This document shows positions 2,680-4,860 of a DNA stretch of 26,162 nucleotides, one piece after another (position 1 is the first letter of the stretch; each line of letters starts with the position of its first letter). A program made the position numbers and the translations under genes. Below the pieces are notes generated by a model, which was given only the letters and a program-made list of their open reading frames with translations, searched no databases and was not told the origin of the DNA. The stretch is from a virus (Duplodnaviria; Heunggongvirae; Uroviricota; Caudoviricetes), in the IMG/VR virus record IMGVR_UViG_3300028965_000026; one strand, 5' to 3'.

Positions 2680-2690
2680 GCAAAACAAAA

Positions 2691-2720
2691 CCCCGGCTGC
2701 TGGAACAGTCCGGGGTTTTT
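2691..2720 (+). terminator. Intrinsic terminator after the endolysin (CCCCGG...CCGGGG hairpin, T5 tail)
   Basis: Hairpin CCCCGGCTGCTGGAACAGTCCGGGG followed by TTTTT. Confidence 0.6.
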
Positions 2721-2811
2721 AGTTTTCACGTCAAAGAGGAAATTGTGAGTAGTGAGTACGGAGAAAATCCTCGTGGGAAAGTATAAAAGATTCTTTTTGA
2801 GGTTGTCTATT

Positions 2812-2925
2812 ATGAAAGGTATTGAAGTGGAAACTCCCGCGAGCCTTGATTTGACAAGGGCTGCGGCCTTTGCAATTCGCCTTGTGGCGGTCGCTGTTCT
2901 GATTTGGGCTGTGCGTTGGTGGTGA
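2812..2925 (+). CDS. Hypothetical 37-aa single-pass membrane peptide
   Basis: ATG at 2812, product MKGIEVETPASLDLTRAAAFAIRLVAVAVLIWAVRWW with one C-terminal hydrophobic helix. Stop TGA at 2923-2925, one nucleotide before the ATG of the next gene. Below the six-frame track length cut-off. Confidence 0.35.
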   Translation: MKGIEVETPASLDLTRAAAFAIRLVAVAVLIWAVRWW

Positions 2926-2926
2926 T

Positions 2927-3109
2927 ATGACGCGAAAACACTGGACACACAGAATGCCGCGAACGGCGGCGAAATGGGCACTGGTAGCGATACTGGTGCC
3001 TTTTTTATTGGTGGGATGCGTCAGCCTGGATAAAGCGCGCCAGCTTTTCGATACTGCTTCTCAGGTCTGTGAAATTGTCGACGGTGTTCGGCAGTGTCTG
3101 CAGAACTGA
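2927..3109 (+). CDS. Small Cys-rich lipoprotein (lipobox LLVG-C); possible outer-membrane spanin analogue or exclusion lipoprotein
   Basis: 60 aa: basic N-terminus, hydrophobic core WALVAILVPFLLVG followed by Cys (signal peptidase II lipobox). The ~30-aa mature part has three Cys. Position directly downstream of the endolysin is typical of spanin genes. Confidence 0.5.
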   Translation: MTRKHWTHRMPRTAAKWALVAILVPFLLVGCVSLDKARQLFDTASQVCEIVDGVRQCLQN

Positions 3110-3280
3110 TCGCCTGTAAGAGCAGAATATTTTGCTGAAAAATGAAGAATGCGTCAGCGTCCGGAAAGCATGAAATTCTGTGTTTGTGGCTACTCAATAA
3201 AATAAATTCTTTCTGTCGCCGCGAATACTCAAATGTTGATCAGTGCCCGGTGCGGCGACGGGCTTCGATATCAGGAGACG

Positions 3281-3580
3281 ATGATGGAAAAAACAGAAAA
3301 CAAACCGATTGTAATTGGTGCTGATGCTGCTCCGTTTAAGTTTGAGTTGTCTCAACTGGTGGAGATGCGCATCAGTGATGAATGGGGCGAGGTTAAAGCC
3401 CGCGCGCAGTATGCGGATGGCGAAAACCAGTACTTGATCCACTACAAAGCAGCTGATGGTCGCGCCACGACGGAGTGGTTTGGTGAGTCAATGCTGGAAG
3501 CAACAGAAGATGATCGTCATCCTGGTTGTCCGGTATTTGCTGGTATGGAATTACCGGAAGGTGCGGTAGTTACTGAGTAA
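3281..3580 (+). CDS. Hypothetical acidic protein (about 98 aa), accessory gene
   Basis: AGGAG at 3273-3277, tandem ATGs at 3281 and 3284. Product MMEKTENKPIVIGADAAPFKFELSQLVEMRISDEWGEVKARAQYADGENQYLIHYK... has no signal peptide and no recognisable motif. Followed by a hairpin at 3592-3616. Confidence 0.6.
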   Translation: MMEKTENKPIVIGADAAPFKFELSQLVEMRISDEWGEVKARAQYADGENQYLIHYKAADGRATTEWFGESMLEATEDDRHPGCPVFAGMELPEGAVVTE

Positions 3581-3591
3581 CAGGCATTACA

Positions 3592-3630
3592 GCAGCCCTT
3601 CAGTGTGAGGGGCTGCGATAATGTTTTTGG
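3592..3630 (+). terminator. Terminator-like hairpin (GCAGCCC...GGGCTGC) with a downstream T-rich tract
   Basis: 7-bp GC stem with an 11-nt loop; the T-run begins about 6 nt after the stem (ATAATGTTTTTGGTTTTTGG). Confidence 0.35.
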
Positions 3631-3882
3631 TTTTTGGCTTTTATACCGCCACGGAAAGCAAGAGGGGAAATGTCTGAACCGAATTATGGGGTGATTAGGC
3701 ATTGCCGTTTCCTGCTGCGATATTTTTAAGTTATCGGAAGGTAGCTGTGGAGTGTTTGGTCGGAAGGCGTAACAAATTTCCGGGGAAGGGAAAGTATTAG
3801 TTTGAAAACTAATGTCCAATTAAACTCTAACATGCGTCCCTGTAAACAATAACAAGTAAGCAATCAGAGTCTTTCTAATTTA

Positions 3883-3907
3883 CGGGAGGATACTCCCGTA
3901 CTTTTTT
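3883..3907 (+). terminator. Intrinsic terminator-like hairpin (CGGGAG-GATA-CTCCCG, then TACTTTTTT)
   Basis: Perfect 6-bp stem with a tetraloop and T6 tail, about 120 nt upstream of the FaeG-like gene. Confidence 0.45.
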
Positions 3908-4024
3908 AAAGGCAACGTGAATTGCAACGTTTGTGATGTTTACGGGTAAACAGTAACGCTTTTGATATGAATGTTTTTATCTGGTTGCTGTTTTATTCAG
4001 TTAATGTTTATAGGGAATCTTTCA

Positions 4025-4795
4025 ATGAAAAAAACACTGATTGCGCTGGCAGTGGCAGCTTCTGCTGTGGTATCCGGTTCTGCGATGGCATGGACTGCAA
4101 ACGGTACGGGTGGTTCTATTGAGCTGGGCGGTACGCTGACTCCGGTTGAGAAAAACACTCCGTGGGAAGTAAAAACGGGTGATGCGGTAATTAACCTTGA
4201 TGCGCAGGTTCAGAAAGGGCAGAAGGTTGTTGAGGTTGTTGTAAACAAAGCAATTCCGGTTCTGGGGATTCGTACTGCCAGCACAACGCCATTCCAGGGA
4301 AAAGTAGGAATTTCTCCGCAGATTGACTATGGGACTGCTGTTGACGTTAATGCATTTAAAAATGGTCGTGCACCAGTCACTCTGGAAGTGAAGGATGATT
4401 CCAATGCTAAAATTGGCACGCTGACCACGTCTTTGGGAGCGTCTGCACTGGTTTCTATTAAAGGCCCGTGGAGTGGATATAACCATTCTTATTCTAATAG
4501 AGCTGGGCAGGGATTCTTTGGCGGCTTACCTAAAGATAAAGCAGGGGTTCCGAATAAAAACATTGCCTTTGATGTAATGCCTGAGGTAGCAGATCATTAT
4601 ACCTATCAGGGTGTTGGATCTTCTGAAGTTGATGTAACCACAAATTTTGCTAATACTAGAGCTACTTATAGTGGTTATTATGCAGCAGGTATCGAACAGG
4701 GCAAAATCATCAAAATCACTCTTGACACGGCTGTGGCTGGTGATTCCCAGATTCAGTGGAATGCATCCCTGCCGGTGACTGTTTCCTACATGTAA
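4025..4795 (+). CDS. Orphan fimbrial major-subunit-like protein, K88 (F4)/FaeG family; secreted (signal peptide)
   Basis: ATG at 4025 with RBS AGGGAA. Signal peptide MKKTLIALAVAASAVVSGSAMA, mature protein starts WTANGTGGSIELGG. Internal GFFGGLP and C-terminal ...QWNASLPVTVSYM (penultimate Tyr) match my recollection of FaeG (MKKTLIALAIAASAASGMAHA / ...WSAPLNVAITYY). The six-frame ORF from 3971 is an upstream extension. Gene is more AT-rich than the phage structural genes. Confidence 0.75.
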   Translation: MKKTLIALAVAASAVVSGSAMAWTANGTGGSIELGGTLTPVEKNTPWEVKTGDAVINLDAQVQKGQKVVEVVVNKAIPVLGIRTASTTPFQGKVGISPQIDYGTAVDVNAFKNGRAPVTLEVKDDSNAKIGTLTTSLGASALVSIKGPWSGYNHSYSNRAGQGFFGGLPKDKAGVPNKNIAFDVMPEVADHYTYQGVGSSEVDVTTNFANTRATYSGYYAAGIEQGKIIKITLDTAVAGDSQIQWNASLPVTVSYM

Positions 4796-4824
4796 TCTAA
4801 TGTCTGGTTAAATTGCTTAAACAA

Positions 4825-4860
4825 GCGGCAACGTATCATCGTTGCCGCTTTGTCGTTCTT
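4825..4860 (+). terminator. Intrinsic terminator after the FaeG-like gene (9-bp stem GCGGCAACG/CGTTGCCGC, T-rich tail)
   Basis: Hairpin at 4825-4848 followed by TTTGTCGTTCTTT. Confidence 0.55.

What the first reader, a model, noticed from the sequence alone, without database searches (positions are those of the whole stretch)
2680..4860. Accessory island between endolysin and cos organised as terminator-bracketed units
Between the endolysin stop and the cos site lie four small or non-structural genes and about 900 bp of AT-rich non-coding DNA. They are punctuated by hairpin/T-run terminators at 2691-2720, 3592-3630, 3883-3907 and 4825-4860. This promoter-gene-terminator layout is the classic moron architecture and marks the region as the cargo slot of this phage, where lysogenic-conversion or defence/anti-defence functions would be expected. 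Nothing in it resembles a known multi-gene defence system.
Basis: inference. Interest (0 to 1): 0.5.

Follow-up and report, generated by a model that had tools for sequence, protein, structure and literature searches.

The report
Prophage-borne orphan F4 fimbrial subunit gene
The stretch between the lysis genes and the packaging site of this E. coli prophage is a real cargo slot, and its main cargo is a portable, terminator-flanked gene for a K88/F4-type fimbrial major subunit that has no assembly machinery of its own and is found in strains whose plasmids carry that machinery.

Summary
Four + strand genes lie at 2812-4795, with 815 bp of non-coding DNA (41.7% GC against 52.4% for the window). 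All four hairpin/T-run terminators sit at the stated places. No sigma-70 promoter was detected, so the "promoter" part is unverified.

The first two genes, a 37-aa membrane ORF and a 60-aa lipoprotein, accompany the lysis cassette in hundreds of prophages. The lipoprotein is the catalogued phiP27 o-spanin, so these are lysis genes, not cargo.

The 98-aa ORF and the 256-aa gene are independent mosaic units. The same slot holds iss/bor, HNH or other ORFs in relatives.

It is a full-length FaeG-like F4/K88 major fimbrial subunit (Pfam 2e-58; predicted fold matches FaeG). It is an orphan, with no usher or chaperone beside it.

Its unit (3784-4874) recurs in lambdoid prophages, in prophages with a different packaging/tail module, and in a satellite-like element. 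The 240-bp leader is nearly invariant while the coding middle is hypervariable.

Three of the four complete genomes that carry it also have an intact plasmid fae operon, against a 2.9% background. My best reading, which is inferred, is lysogenic conversion of resident F4 fimbriae by a subunit supplied in trans.

The parts
2691..2720 (+). Intrinsic-terminator-like hairpin with T-run directly after the endolysin stop (T1). It belongs to a 246-bp indel unit, 2676-2921.
   Evidence: Fold -21.9 kcal/mol, z -3.9. Window 2676-2921 is absent in A36 and is replaced by unrelated sequence in phiP27.
2812..2925 (+). 37-aa ORF (57 aa from GTG 2752) with one C-terminal hydrophobic segment. Its stop lies 1 nt before the next start. 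It accompanies the lysis cassette and its function is unknown.
   Evidence: phrog_4493, E 7e-16. Annotated as WP_001305859 in several genomes, and also found after a GH108 endolysin. Absent in A36 and in the IMG/VR contigs L035/L036.
2927..3109 (+). Small lipoprotein with lipobox LLVGC and a mature part of 30 aa. It is the homolog of the catalogued phiP27 o-spanin, so it belongs to the lysis cassette and is not cargo.
   Evidence: phrog_7528, E 1.6e-38. 156 clusters in five enterobacterial genera, named 'Lipoprotein' by UniRef. phiP27 o-spanin coordinates 20706-20861 in Kongari et al. 2018 equal this ORF.
2976..3001 (+). Terminator-like hairpin with a T6 run, inside the lipoprotein ORF in the signal-peptide codons.
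   Evidence: 11-pair stem. -17.9 kcal/mol, z -5.3. The sequence is also present in phiP27.
3284..3580 (+). 98-aa ORF of unknown function. It is the phiP27 L33 family and forms an independent mosaic unit at about 3181-3573.
   Evidence: phrog_1935, E 1e-60. 79 clusters, found only in Enterobacteriaceae prophages. Absent in A36, L035 and L036. No Pfam, NCBIfam, PADLOC or PDB match. The AlphaFold2 model is unusable, pLDDT 44.8.
3585..3635 (+). Terminator T2 after the 98-aa ORF. It marks the mosaic joint with phiP27.
   Evidence: -24.1 kcal/mol, z -4.5. phiP27 homology ends at 3623.
3784..4024 (+). Nearly invariant 240-bp leader of the F4 unit. It contains terminator T3, the direct repeat GCAACGT twice (3912, 3924), the palindrome TGTTTAC-GG-GTAAACA (3937-3952), a candidate extended -10 TGaTATGAA (3963-3971, by eye) and an AGGGA ribosome-binding site.
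   Evidence: 96-100% identical among copies whose coding regions are 49-100% identical at the protein level. Homology with the satellite copy starts at about 3784. Repeats. No Rfam match.
3881..3907 (+). Terminator T3, an 8-bp GC-rich stem with a T6 run, lying inside the conserved leader. It would insulate the F4 gene from upstream transcription.
   Evidence: -14.1 kcal/mol, z -4.2. Invariant in all copies apart from one change in L022 that gives a G-U pair.
4025..4795 (+). Orphan F4/K88-family (FaeG-like) fimbrial major subunit. It has a signal peptide (1-22, ...SAMA|W), an N-terminal donor-strand segment, a hypervariable middle and a conserved C-terminus ...SLPVTVSYM.
   Evidence: PF02432, E 2.1e-58, full length. 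FaeG 2J6G matched by sequence. AlphaFold2 pLDDT 87.3, and the top 18 PDB fold hits are all FaeG. Alleles compared.
4823..4860 (+). Terminator T4 after the F4 gene. The right end of the portable unit is at about 4874.
   Evidence: -20.0 kcal/mol, z -6.1. Kept in the satellite copy through compensatory and G-U changes. The plasmid-operon copy is unrelated after the stop codon.
4915..5030 (+). Lambda-like cos region. It is the right-hand boundary of the slot.
   Evidence: Local alignment to the lambda cos sequence, which I supplied from memory. Followed by Nu1 at 5139-5648 and gpA-type TerL at 5620-7536.

Best explanation
The region has two parts.

(1) Window 2680-3109 is the tail of the lysis cassette. 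It holds a terminator, a tiny membrane ORF and a small outer-membrane lipoprotein that the literature lists as the minimal 'o-spanin' of phiP27.

(2) Window 3110-4874 is the bor/iss-type cargo slot immediately left of cos. It holds two independently acquired units.

The first unit is the 98-aa ORF with its terminator. Its function is unknown.

The second unit (3784-4874) is a genuine moron. It has an upstream insulating terminator, a ~120-bp conserved control region, a gene for a FaeG-like F4/K88 major fimbrial subunit, and a downstream terminator.

The subunit has everything a chaperone-usher pilin needs: a signal peptide, an N-terminal donor strand, an FaeG fold and a C-terminal motif. It has no usher or chaperone.

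Most likely mechanism (inferred):
- In lysogens that carry a plasmid-borne fae-type operon, the prophage subunit is exported.
- It is captured by the resident FaeE chaperone and polymerised by the FaeD usher.
- This adds or substitutes an adhesin/antigen variant in the host's F4 fimbriae. It would be lysogenic conversion of adhesin specificity, dependent on a second replicon.

The conserved ends of the gene also let the middle 'cassette' be exchanged by recombination with operon alleles.

Shown here: gene identities, portability and boundaries of the units, allele mosaicism, purifying selection, and co-occurrence with fae operons.

Inferred: expression from its own promoter in the lysogen, assembly in trans, and benefit to the host.
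For: Identity:
- PF02432 over the full length, E 2e-58.
- The fold matches FaeG and FaeE-FaeG complexes, E 7e-15, TM 0.61.
- Residues 1-40 are disordered in the model, as expected for a signal peptide plus donor strand.

Origin:
- The closest non-phage relatives (76-81% aa) sit exactly at the faeG position of complete operons (FaeA, FaeB, FaeC, usher, chaperone, FaeF, X, FaeH, FaeI, FaeJ).

Portability:
- The same unit occurs in Nu1/gpA lambdoid prophages (L004, L010, L011, L014, L015, L033).
- It occurs in prophages with a DUF1441 terS and, where the contig extends far enough (L012), a tail-sheath gene (L012, L013, L022, L034).
- It occurs in a satellite-like element with a DUF927 primase, Icd, PerC and terS (L006).
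- Homology boundaries lie at 3784 and 4874.

Functional constraint:
- All alleles are intact.
- Against operon alleles, omega is 0.15-0.25 (N-terminal) and 0.12-0.17 (C-terminal).
- The gene is intact in the decayed 52F4 prophage, whose endolysin and terminase are truncated.
- The leader is 96-100% conserved.

Mosaicism:
- Against the CEA224S allele, dS is 0.05 in the N-terminal part and 1.43 in the middle.
- Against the L022 allele, dS is 0.06 in the middle and 0.31 in the N-terminal part.
- blastn finds no match for 4204-4662 between otherwise 97-99.6% identical loci.

Machinery is generic:
- fae operon backbones are 86-95% identical in 150-155 genomes, and the alignment always breaks at the major-subunit gene.
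- Some operons carry two tandem major subunits.

Co-occurrence:
- Four complete E. coli genomes carry the orphan.
- CEA224S (pCEA224S), 52F4 (p52F4_1) and MB06102 (pMB06102_contig_2) each carry an intact plasmid faeC-J operon.
- The background is 155 of 5426 genomes (2.9%). The binomial P for at least 2 of 4 is 0.005.

Slot:
- iss/bor occupies the same position in strain 47-1826.
Against: - No promoter was found by the consensus scan. The extended -10 candidate was found by eye only.
- The gene lies in the late operon, so it may be expressed only after induction, when a fimbrial subunit would be of little use.
- Co-occurrence rests on four genomes. 52F4 and CEA224S share both the prophage and the plasmid, so they are probably one lineage. 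That leaves two independent cases.
- A36 is a chromosome-only assembly. No fae operon was seen for it in the 60 best rows or the 60-row sample. About 100 matching records stayed unlisted in each search.
- The resident major subunits are only about 27% identical to the orphan. Compatibility with the resident chaperone and usher is assumed from family-level conservation. It also rests on my recollection of published F41/K88/CS31A cross-complementation (Korth et al. 1992), a paper I could not retrieve.
- The spanin assignment of the lipoprotein is purely bioinformatic. No credible i-spanin partner is present in the window.
Confidence: 0.55

Rival explanations
1. The whole of 2680-4860 is a cargo island of four promoter-gene-terminator morons, probably with defence or anti-defence functions.
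For: Four terminators are real. The non-coding DNA is AT-rich. Mosaic joints lie at terminators. The 37-aa ORF plus T1 is an indel unit, absent in A36.
Against: The lipoprotein is conserved with the lysis cassette across genera and across endolysin types, and it is catalogued as an o-spanin. There are no PADLOC hits. No promoters were detected. The largest gene is a fimbrial subunit.
Confidence: 0.12
2. The F4 gene is a passive hitch-hiker. It was captured from a plasmid operon by illegitimate recombination near cos, it is not expressed or not assembled, and it has no function.
For: It is rare: 4 of 5426 complete genomes carry it. There is no adjacent machinery. No promoter was detected. It lies next to cos-like sequence in both the phage and the satellite, which would suit packaging-associated capture.
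Against: The ORF is intact in every copy examined, about 12 loci. The assembly-relevant ends are under purifying selection. It is retained intact in a decayed prophage. The 240-bp leader is nearly invariant. At least five very different alleles occupy the same unit, which implies long persistence and repeated exchange.
Confidence: 0.1
3. The orphan subunit interferes with resident fimbriae rather than building them. It would titrate FaeE or alter or cap the fibre, for example to block superinfection by fimbria-dependent phages or to change surface properties at induction.
For: Co-occurrence with fae operons fits this reading equally well. The gene's position in the late transcription unit would give high expression on induction. 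Prophages commonly modify surface structures for superinfection exclusion, a general point reviewed in PMC11436027 (listed).
Against: The donor-strand segment and the C-terminal motif are conserved as in polymerising major subunits. The hypervariable middle coincides with the surface/receptor-binding part of FaeG-type subunits. That pattern is expected for an exposed adhesin or antigen, not for a periplasmic decoy. No F4-fimbria-specific phage is known to me.
Confidence: 0.13
4. The prophage copy mainly serves as a mobile reservoir cassette, analogous to silent pilin copies. It recombines with the plasmid faeG through the shared 5' and 3' coding ends and spreads adhesin alleles between strains. 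Its own expression would be secondary.
For: The mosaic dS pattern and the unalignable middle between near-identical flanks. The middle of the window allele is closer to operon alleles (dS 0.29-0.39) than its ends are (dS 0.57-0.95). Co-residence with operons.
Against: In the three co-resident strains the plasmid major subunit is a different, distant type, about 27% identical in CEA224S. That leaves little homology for exchange there. The conserved leader, ribosome-binding site and signal peptide argue for expression.
Confidence: 0.1

Closest known systems
Lambda bor / E. coli iss and lom: classic morons of lambdoid phages
   Same: The position is the same, between the lysis genes and cos. iss occupies exactly this slot in strain 47-1826. 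The unit is small, terminator-flanked and lower in GC. It encodes an envelope protein that would benefit the lysogen. It is present or absent among otherwise homologous phages.
   Different: The cargo is a chaperone-usher pilin, which cannot act alone and needs an assembly system encoded elsewhere. The alleles are hypervariable behind an invariant leader. The unit is also shared with a satellite-like element.
FaeG, Fim41a, ClpG and other major subunits of the F4 (K88)/F41/CS31A kappa-fimbrial operons
   Same: Same Pfam family and fold, signal peptide, donor-strand motif (S-[IV]-[DE]-[LIF]-G-G) and C-terminal ...VTVSY motif. The closest relatives (76-81% aa) lie at the faeG position of full operons. 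The pattern of a conserved machinery with a variable major subunit is the same.
   Different: The gene is not in an operon. It has no FaeC/D/E/F/H/I/J neighbours and its own unrelated upstream and downstream DNA. It sits in a prophage late region.
Stx2e phage phiP27 lysis region (holins L28/L29, endolysin L30, L32/L33)
   Same: Window 1547-2672 is 94% identical to phiP27 and 2926-3623 is 97% identical. These stretches cover both holins, the M15 endolysin, the lipoprotein and the 98-aa ORF.
   Different: After the 98-aa ORF, phiP27 continues with an HNH gene, its own cos and a different terminase. It has no F4 unit. It has stx2e where the window has an AraC-type regulator.
Two-component spanins (lambda Rz/Rz1); the phiP27 'separated' spanin in Kongari et al. 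2018
   Same: The lipoprotein has a lipobox, follows the endolysin, and is the homolog of the listed phiP27 o-spanin, with a 30-residue periplasmic part.
   Different: No partner with an N-terminal transmembrane domain and a periplasmic domain is present. The adjacent 37-aa ORF has its hydrophobic segment at the C-terminus. The phiP27 'i-spanin' ORF has no counterpart here and overlaps a more convincing opposite-strand ORF. Function is untested.
Lysogenic conversion that depends on host machinery (e.g. phage gtrABC O-antigen modification); silent pilin cassettes (Neisseria pilS), as analogies from general knowledge
   Same: It would work like these systems. A mobile element supplies a variant component that re-tools a surface structure built by resident machinery. 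Conserved ends with a variable middle allow cassette exchange.
   Different: No homology with these systems. The dependence here would be on a plasmid-encoded chaperone-usher system. None of it has been shown experimentally.

Membership tests
Phage moron (autonomous accessory unit inserted between conserved phage genes) | Present in some genomes and absent in others that are otherwise homologous, with sharp boundaries | tested here: met
   F4 unit: boundaries at 3784/4874. It is present in three kinds of element, and absent from phiP27, GF31, E400634 and 47-1826. 98-aa unit: absent in A36, L035 and L036. Not met for the lipoprotein gene, which is conserved.
Phage moron | Own transcription terminator | tested here: met
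   T2 follows the 98-aa ORF. T3 and T4 flank the F4 gene. All are stable relative to shuffles. T4 is kept by compensatory change.
Phage moron | Own promoter, with expression from the repressed prophage | tested here: inconclusive
   No consensus promoter on the + strand in 2680-4860. A conserved 120-bp region lies between T3 and the start codon, with a possible extended -10 (by eye), a palindrome and direct repeats. Transcription cannot be tested here.
Phage moron | Base composition differs from the flanking phage genes | tested here: met
   Leader 40.3% GC, F4 coding region 46.2%, against 53.8% for the structural genes.
F4/K88 (FaeG-like) fimbrial major subunit | Sequence family PF02432 over the full length | tested here: met
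   E 2.1e-58, residues 1-256 against profile positions 1-270 of 270. FaeG 2J6G matched at E 6.6e-5 over the full length.
F4/K88 (FaeG-like) fimbrial major subunit | FaeG-type fold with an unstructured N-terminal extension (donor strand) | tested here: met
   AlphaFold2 pLDDT 87.3, with residues 1-40 of low confidence. Foldseek top 18 hits are all FaeG, including FaeE-FaeG complexes, E 7e-15, TM 0.61.
F4/K88 (FaeG-like) fimbrial major subunit | Sec signal peptide, donor-strand motif and C-terminal assembly motif conserved | tested here: met
   MKKTLIALAVAASAVVSGSAMA|W; GSIELGGTLT aligns with FaeG GSVDIGGSIT...ASLPVTVSYM. These are the low-entropy segments 1-60 and 221-256, with omega 0.12-0.25. 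Cleavage site and motif roles come from general knowledge.
F4/K88 (FaeG-like) fimbrial major subunit | Encoded within a chaperone-usher operon (faeC-D-E-F-G-H-I-J) | tested here: not met
   The neighbours are the lysis genes and terminase. It is an orphan. Operons are present on plasmids of three of the four complete genomes that carry it.
F4/K88 (FaeG-like) fimbrial major subunit | Bound by FaeE and polymerised by FaeD into surface fimbriae | not testable with these tools
   Needs expression and purification experiments.
Two-component spanin | o-spanin: small outer-membrane lipoprotein encoded with the lysis genes | tested here: met
   Lipobox LLVGC. Follows M15 or GH108 endolysins. Homolog of the phiP27 o-spanin listed by Kongari et al. 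2018.
Two-component spanin | i-spanin: N-terminal transmembrane domain plus a periplasmic domain that reaches the o-spanin | tested here: not met
   The only candidate, 2812-2925 (or 2752-2925), has its hydrophobic segment at the C-terminus and is absent in A36, L035 and L036. The phiP27 i-spanin ORF has no homolog in the window.
Known anti-phage defence systems | Match to a PADLOC model | tested here: not met
   No hit at E <= 0.1 for any of the four proteins.

The most novel reading that the evidence does not exclude
Temperate phages and a phage satellite carry a standardised 'adhesin cartridge'. It has an invariant leader and conserved 5' and 3' coding ends around a hypervariable FaeG middle. 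The product is assembled in trans by plasmid-encoded F4-type chaperone-usher machinery. A single lysogenisation would then switch or broaden the receptor or antigen specificity of the host's fimbriae. Alleles would be shuffled between prophage and plasmid copies by recombination. This would be a three-way functional dependency between phage or satellite, plasmid and host. The invariant 240-bp leader, with its terminator hairpin and palindrome, might additionally be a regulatory RNA or operator that couples expression to phage or host state.
Probability: 0.3. Interest if true: 0.7.

Novelty: new member of a known kind. Interest (0 to 1): 0.5.

Why it matters
F4/K88-type fimbriae (K88, F41, CS31A and many unnamed variants) determine host and tissue tropism of enterotoxigenic and other E. 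coli, and they are vaccine antigens.

If a major-subunit variant can arrive on a prophage or satellite and be assembled by a resident plasmid operon, three things follow:
- Adhesin specificity and antigenic type could change by lysogeny alone.
- Typing schemes that look only at the operon would miss the second subunit.
- Phage-plasmid functional coupling would become a route of adhesin evolution.

No complete phage genome in INPHARED carries such a gene, and the literature searches found no description of one. At the level of the island itself the finding is textbook: the bor/iss moron slot of lambdoid phages.

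Tried and rejected
1. Scan of one genome per species (genome contigs) with the F4 alignment. The back-translated patterns were too generic, and only two distant loci came back. The scan was wasted.

2. 98-aa ORF. Pfam, NCBIfam, PADLOC, a PDB profile search and per-member Pfam scans gave nothing. AlphaFold2 with 23 homologs gave pLDDT 44.8, so no fold search was run. Function stays unknown.

3. Idea that the prophage AraC-type regulator (window 53-550) is the cognate regulator of the plasmid fae operon. Rejected: there is only a 26% match in the generic HTH region to the regulator next to the pCEA224S operon, and other F4-carrying phages have a different regulator at that position (L011, 195 aa) or none (A36).

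4. Idea that the conserved leader is a known RNA. There is no Rfam match at E <= 1. Window 3784-3910 folds with z -3.3, but most of that comes from the terminator hairpin. No conserved promoter is placed to make it a separate sRNA. Left open.

5. Guessing plasmid accessions. CP166081 turned out to be pCEA224S, which was useful. CP028740 is another strain's chromosome, so the A36 plasmid content remains unknown.

6. The literature library did not hold the 1992 F41/K88/CS31A cross-complementation paper. That point rests on my memory only.

7. Interpreting the 37-aa ORF plus lipoprotein as a complete spanin. Rejected for lack of an i-spanin-like partner.

Full report
**Context.**
- The window is a lambdoid, phiP27-related E. 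coli prophage.
- Upstream of the finding lie the 3' part of an AraC-family regulator gene (53-550; YdeO/GadX-like), tRNA-Thr and tRNA-Gly (931-1084), two holins (1642-2034, PF16931; 2024-2299, PF05449) and an M15 endolysin (2302-2679).
- Downstream lie a lambda-like cos region, Nu1 (5139-5648), gpA-type TerL (5620-7536) and head genes.

**Observation.**
- Four + strand ORFs lie between the endolysin stop and cos: 2812-2925, 2927-3109, 3284-3580 and 4025-4795.
- Non-coding DNA totals 815 bp at 41.7% GC, against 52.4% for the window.
They fold far better than shuffled sequence: -21.9, -24.1, -14.1 and -20.0 kcal/mol, with z from -3.9 to -6.1.
- Terminator-like sites are about twice as frequent in 1-8000 as in shuffles (18 against 8.5 +/- 3.1).
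- The promoter half of 'promoter-gene-terminator' is not visible. The scan found no + strand sigma-70-like site in the region.
- A fifth strong hairpin with a T-run lies inside the second ORF (2976-3001).

**The two proximal genes belong to the lysis cassette.**
- The 60-aa product has a lipobox (LLVGC) and a 30-residue mature part.
- Homologs form 156 clusters on hundreds of contigs from Escherichia, Salmonella, Citrobacter, Cronobacter and Yersinia.
- The 37-aa ORF and the lipoprotein gene follow the lysis genes even where the endolysin is a GH108 enzyme rather than M15 (strain 47-1826).
- Kongari et al. 2018 (PMC6139136) list phiP27 as having the shortest known 'separated' two-component spanin. 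Their o-spanin coordinates (20706-20861) are exactly the phiP27 homolog of this lipoprotein.
- Their phiP27 i-spanin ORF has no counterpart in the window and overlaps a more convincing opposite-strand ORF.
- The window's 37-aa ORF has its hydrophobic segment at the wrong end for an i-spanin, and it is missing in some relatives.
- I therefore file the lipoprotein as a lysis-cassette component (a candidate o-spanin, untested). The 37-aa ORF plus T1 (2676-2921) is an optional insert of unknown role.

**The distal part is a real cargo slot.** Relatives that share the lysis cassette carry different things here:

| Relative | Content of the slot |
|---|---|
| CEA224S, 52F4, several draft and metagenome contigs | 98-aa ORF + F4 gene |
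| A36, IMG/VR contigs L035 and L036 | F4 gene alone |
| 47-1826 | iss/bor on the opposite strand |
| phiP27, GF31 | L33 + HNH + another cos/terminase |
| E400634 | a 122-aa hypothetical |
| Stx2k phage | several tiny ORFs |

- blastn joints fall at 2675/2676, 2921/2922, 3180/3181, 3573/3574, 3623/3624, 3784 and 4874. That is, they fall at or next to the terminators.
- This is the classical bor/iss moron position, immediately left of cos.

**The 98-aa ORF.**
- It belongs to phrog_1935 (the phiP27 L33 family) and is restricted to enterobacterial prophages.
- Nothing could be learnt about its function.

**The F4 unit: what the gene is.**
- The 256-aa product is a full-length F4/K88-family fimbrial subunit (PF02432, E 2e-58).
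- Its AlphaFold2 model (pLDDT 87.3) matches only FaeG structures at high significance, including FaeE-FaeG chaperone complexes.
- It has a signal peptide, the donor-strand segment (GSIELGGTLT, against FaeG GSVDIGGSIT) and the C-terminal ...SLPVTVSYM motif.
- Its nearest non-phage relatives (76-81% aa) occupy the faeG position of complete operons on plasmids and chromosomes of E. coli, E. marmotae and Salmonella.
- Homology to those operon copies starts 13 nt before the ATG and stops at the stop codon. Only the coding sequence was captured.

**The F4 unit: it is portable.**
- Window 3784-4874 recurs in Nu1/gpA lambdoid prophages.
- It recurs in prophages with a DUF1441 terS; one of these contigs (L012) reaches far enough to show a tail-sheath gene.
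- It recurs in a satellite-like element of strain MB06102 (DUF927 primase, Icd, PerC, ProQ/FinO, terS).
- The 240-bp leader (3784-4024) includes terminator T3, two GCAACGT repeats and the palindrome TGTTTAC-GG-GTAAACA. It is 96-100% identical in all copies.
- The encoded proteins are only 49-100% identical.

**The F4 unit: the alleles are mosaic.**
- Residues 1-60 and 221-256 are conserved, and residues 141-210 are the most variable.
- Window 4204-4662 has no blastn match to the 52F4 and CEA224S alleles, although the flanks are 97.8-99.6% identical.
- dS jumps between segments. Against CEA224S it is 0.05 (N-terminal) and 1.43 (middle). Against L022 it is 0.31 (N-terminal) and 0.06 (middle).
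- Against operon alleles the middle is closer (dS 0.29-0.39) than the ends (dS 0.57-0.95).
- The ends are under strong purifying selection (omega 0.12-0.25).
- This is the signature of repeated cassette exchange in a gene whose assembly-relevant ends are kept.

**The F4 unit: signs that it is functional.**
- The gene is intact in every copy.
- That includes the decayed 52F4 prophage, whose endolysin and terminase are truncated.

**Does the host have the machinery?**
- fae-type operon backbones occur in 150-155 of 5426 complete E. coli genomes (2.8-2.9%), mostly on plasmids.
- They are 86-95% identical, and the alignments always break at the major-subunit gene. The machinery is therefore generic and the major subunit interchangeable.
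- Some operons hold two tandem major subunits.
- Four complete genomes carry the orphan unit.
- CEA224S has pCEA224S with an intact faeC-D-E-F-major-H-I-J operon.
- 52F4 has p52F4_1 with the same operon at 99.9% identity. It is split by the record origin, which is why it ranked low.
- MB06102 has an intact operon on a 135-kb plasmid.
- A36 is a chromosome-only assembly and remains unknown.
- Even if only 2 of the 4 genomes are counted as carrying an operon, the binomial probability against the 2.9% background is 0.005.
- The sample is small, and 52F4 and CEA224S are probably one lineage.
- In CEA224S the resident major subunit is only about 27% identical to the orphan. The lysogen would then have two very different candidate major subunits.

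**Mechanism.**
- The best-supported reading is that the unit is a moron that supplies an alternative major subunit or adhesin to a resident plasmid-encoded F4-type chaperone-usher system.
- Export, chaperoning by FaeE, polymerisation at FaeD and expression in the lysogen are all inferred.

Rivals:
- A functionless hitch-hiker. This is disfavoured by the intactness of the gene, the selection on it and the conserved leader.
- An interfering or exclusion subunit. This fits the co-occurrence but fits the conservation pattern less well.
- A recombination reservoir. This fits the mosaicism but not the low identity to co-resident alleles.

**Novelty.**
- The island as such is ordinary.
- The cargo appears to be undescribed. 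tblastn against 50,697 deposited phage records finds an F4 subunit only on two 2.5-3.2 kb fragments.
- Four literature searches found no report of one.
- IMG/VR holds four viral contigs with alleles of 49-100% identity in the same slot.
- I rate it a new member of a known kind: a moron or lysogenic-conversion gene.
- There is a more novel reading that my evidence does not exclude. It is a phage- and satellite-borne adhesin cartridge acting through a plasmid-encoded machine.

Noticed in passing
window 1-550 (+), and 931-1084: An AraC-family regulator gene (best NCBIfam matches YdeO and GadX, below their cut-offs), cut by the window start, followed by tRNA-Thr(tgt) and tRNA-Gly(tcc). Together they occupy the position downstream of the late antiterminator where phiP27 carries tRNAs and stx2e. 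Related prophages have a different AraC-type gene or none.
   Followed up: partly
window 2976-3001 (+): A strong terminator-like hairpin (11 pairs, -17.9 kcal/mol, z -5.3) followed by TTTTTT lies inside the lipoprotein ORF, in its signal-peptide codons. It is also present in phiP27. If it is active, the gene would be fully transcribed only by antiterminated (Q-modified) polymerase.
   Followed up: partly
window 3784-4024 (+): The non-coding leader of the F4 gene is more conserved (96-100%) than synonymous sites of the adjacent coding region (dS up to 0.34). It contains a 5' hairpin (3796-3813), a terminator hairpin with U6 (3881-3907), two GCAACGT repeats and a 7+2+7 palindrome (3937-3952). 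It could be an operator or promoter region, or a small RNA. There is no Rfam match.
   Followed up: partly
window 1448-1466, 1496-1513, 1601-1616 (+): Three consecutive terminator-like hairpins with long T-runs lie between the tRNAs and the first holin gene. They resemble the multi-terminator region that Q-type antiterminators read through.
   Followed up: no
L003 (phiP27 NC_003356) 6517-6748: The RefSeq feature L32 (6517-6672) is in a different frame from the conserved lipoprotein ORF (6560/6593-6748). The published phiP27 'i-spanin' ORF (L003 6235-6429, TTG start) overlaps a 90-aa opposite-strand ORF that looks more protein-like.
   Followed up: partly
L006 (MB06102 chromosome) 4865-4949 and 5818-5896, next to the F4 unit at 6001-7112: In the satellite-like element the F4 unit also lies within about 100 bp of a cos-like sequence (74.7-75.3% identical to window 4910-4994; two copies in opposite orientation flank terS). 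The unit is therefore cos-adjacent in both phage and satellite.
   Followed up: no
L001 (52F4 chromosome) 11967-15466: The 52F4 prophage is decayed: the endolysin lacks its N-terminus, no holins are annotated, and TerL is truncated and abuts a tail-fibre assembly fragment. The lipoprotein pair, the 98-aa ORF, the F4 gene and Nu1 remain intact.
   Followed up: partly
L025-L027 (E. marmotae) 6954-8777; L020 14058-14771; L023 12996-15071: Some fae-type operons carry two tandem major-subunit genes. Further solitary F4-family subunit genes lie a few kb downstream of the operon, next to an S6-peptidase autotransporter gene. Extra subunit genes outside the core operon are therefore common in this family.
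   Followed up: no
window 2809-2780 (- strand): The best promoter-like match in the region (TAGACA-18-TATACT, 10 of 12) is on the minus strand, between the endolysin and the 37-aa ORF, and points back into the endolysin gene. It may be chance.
   Followed up: no
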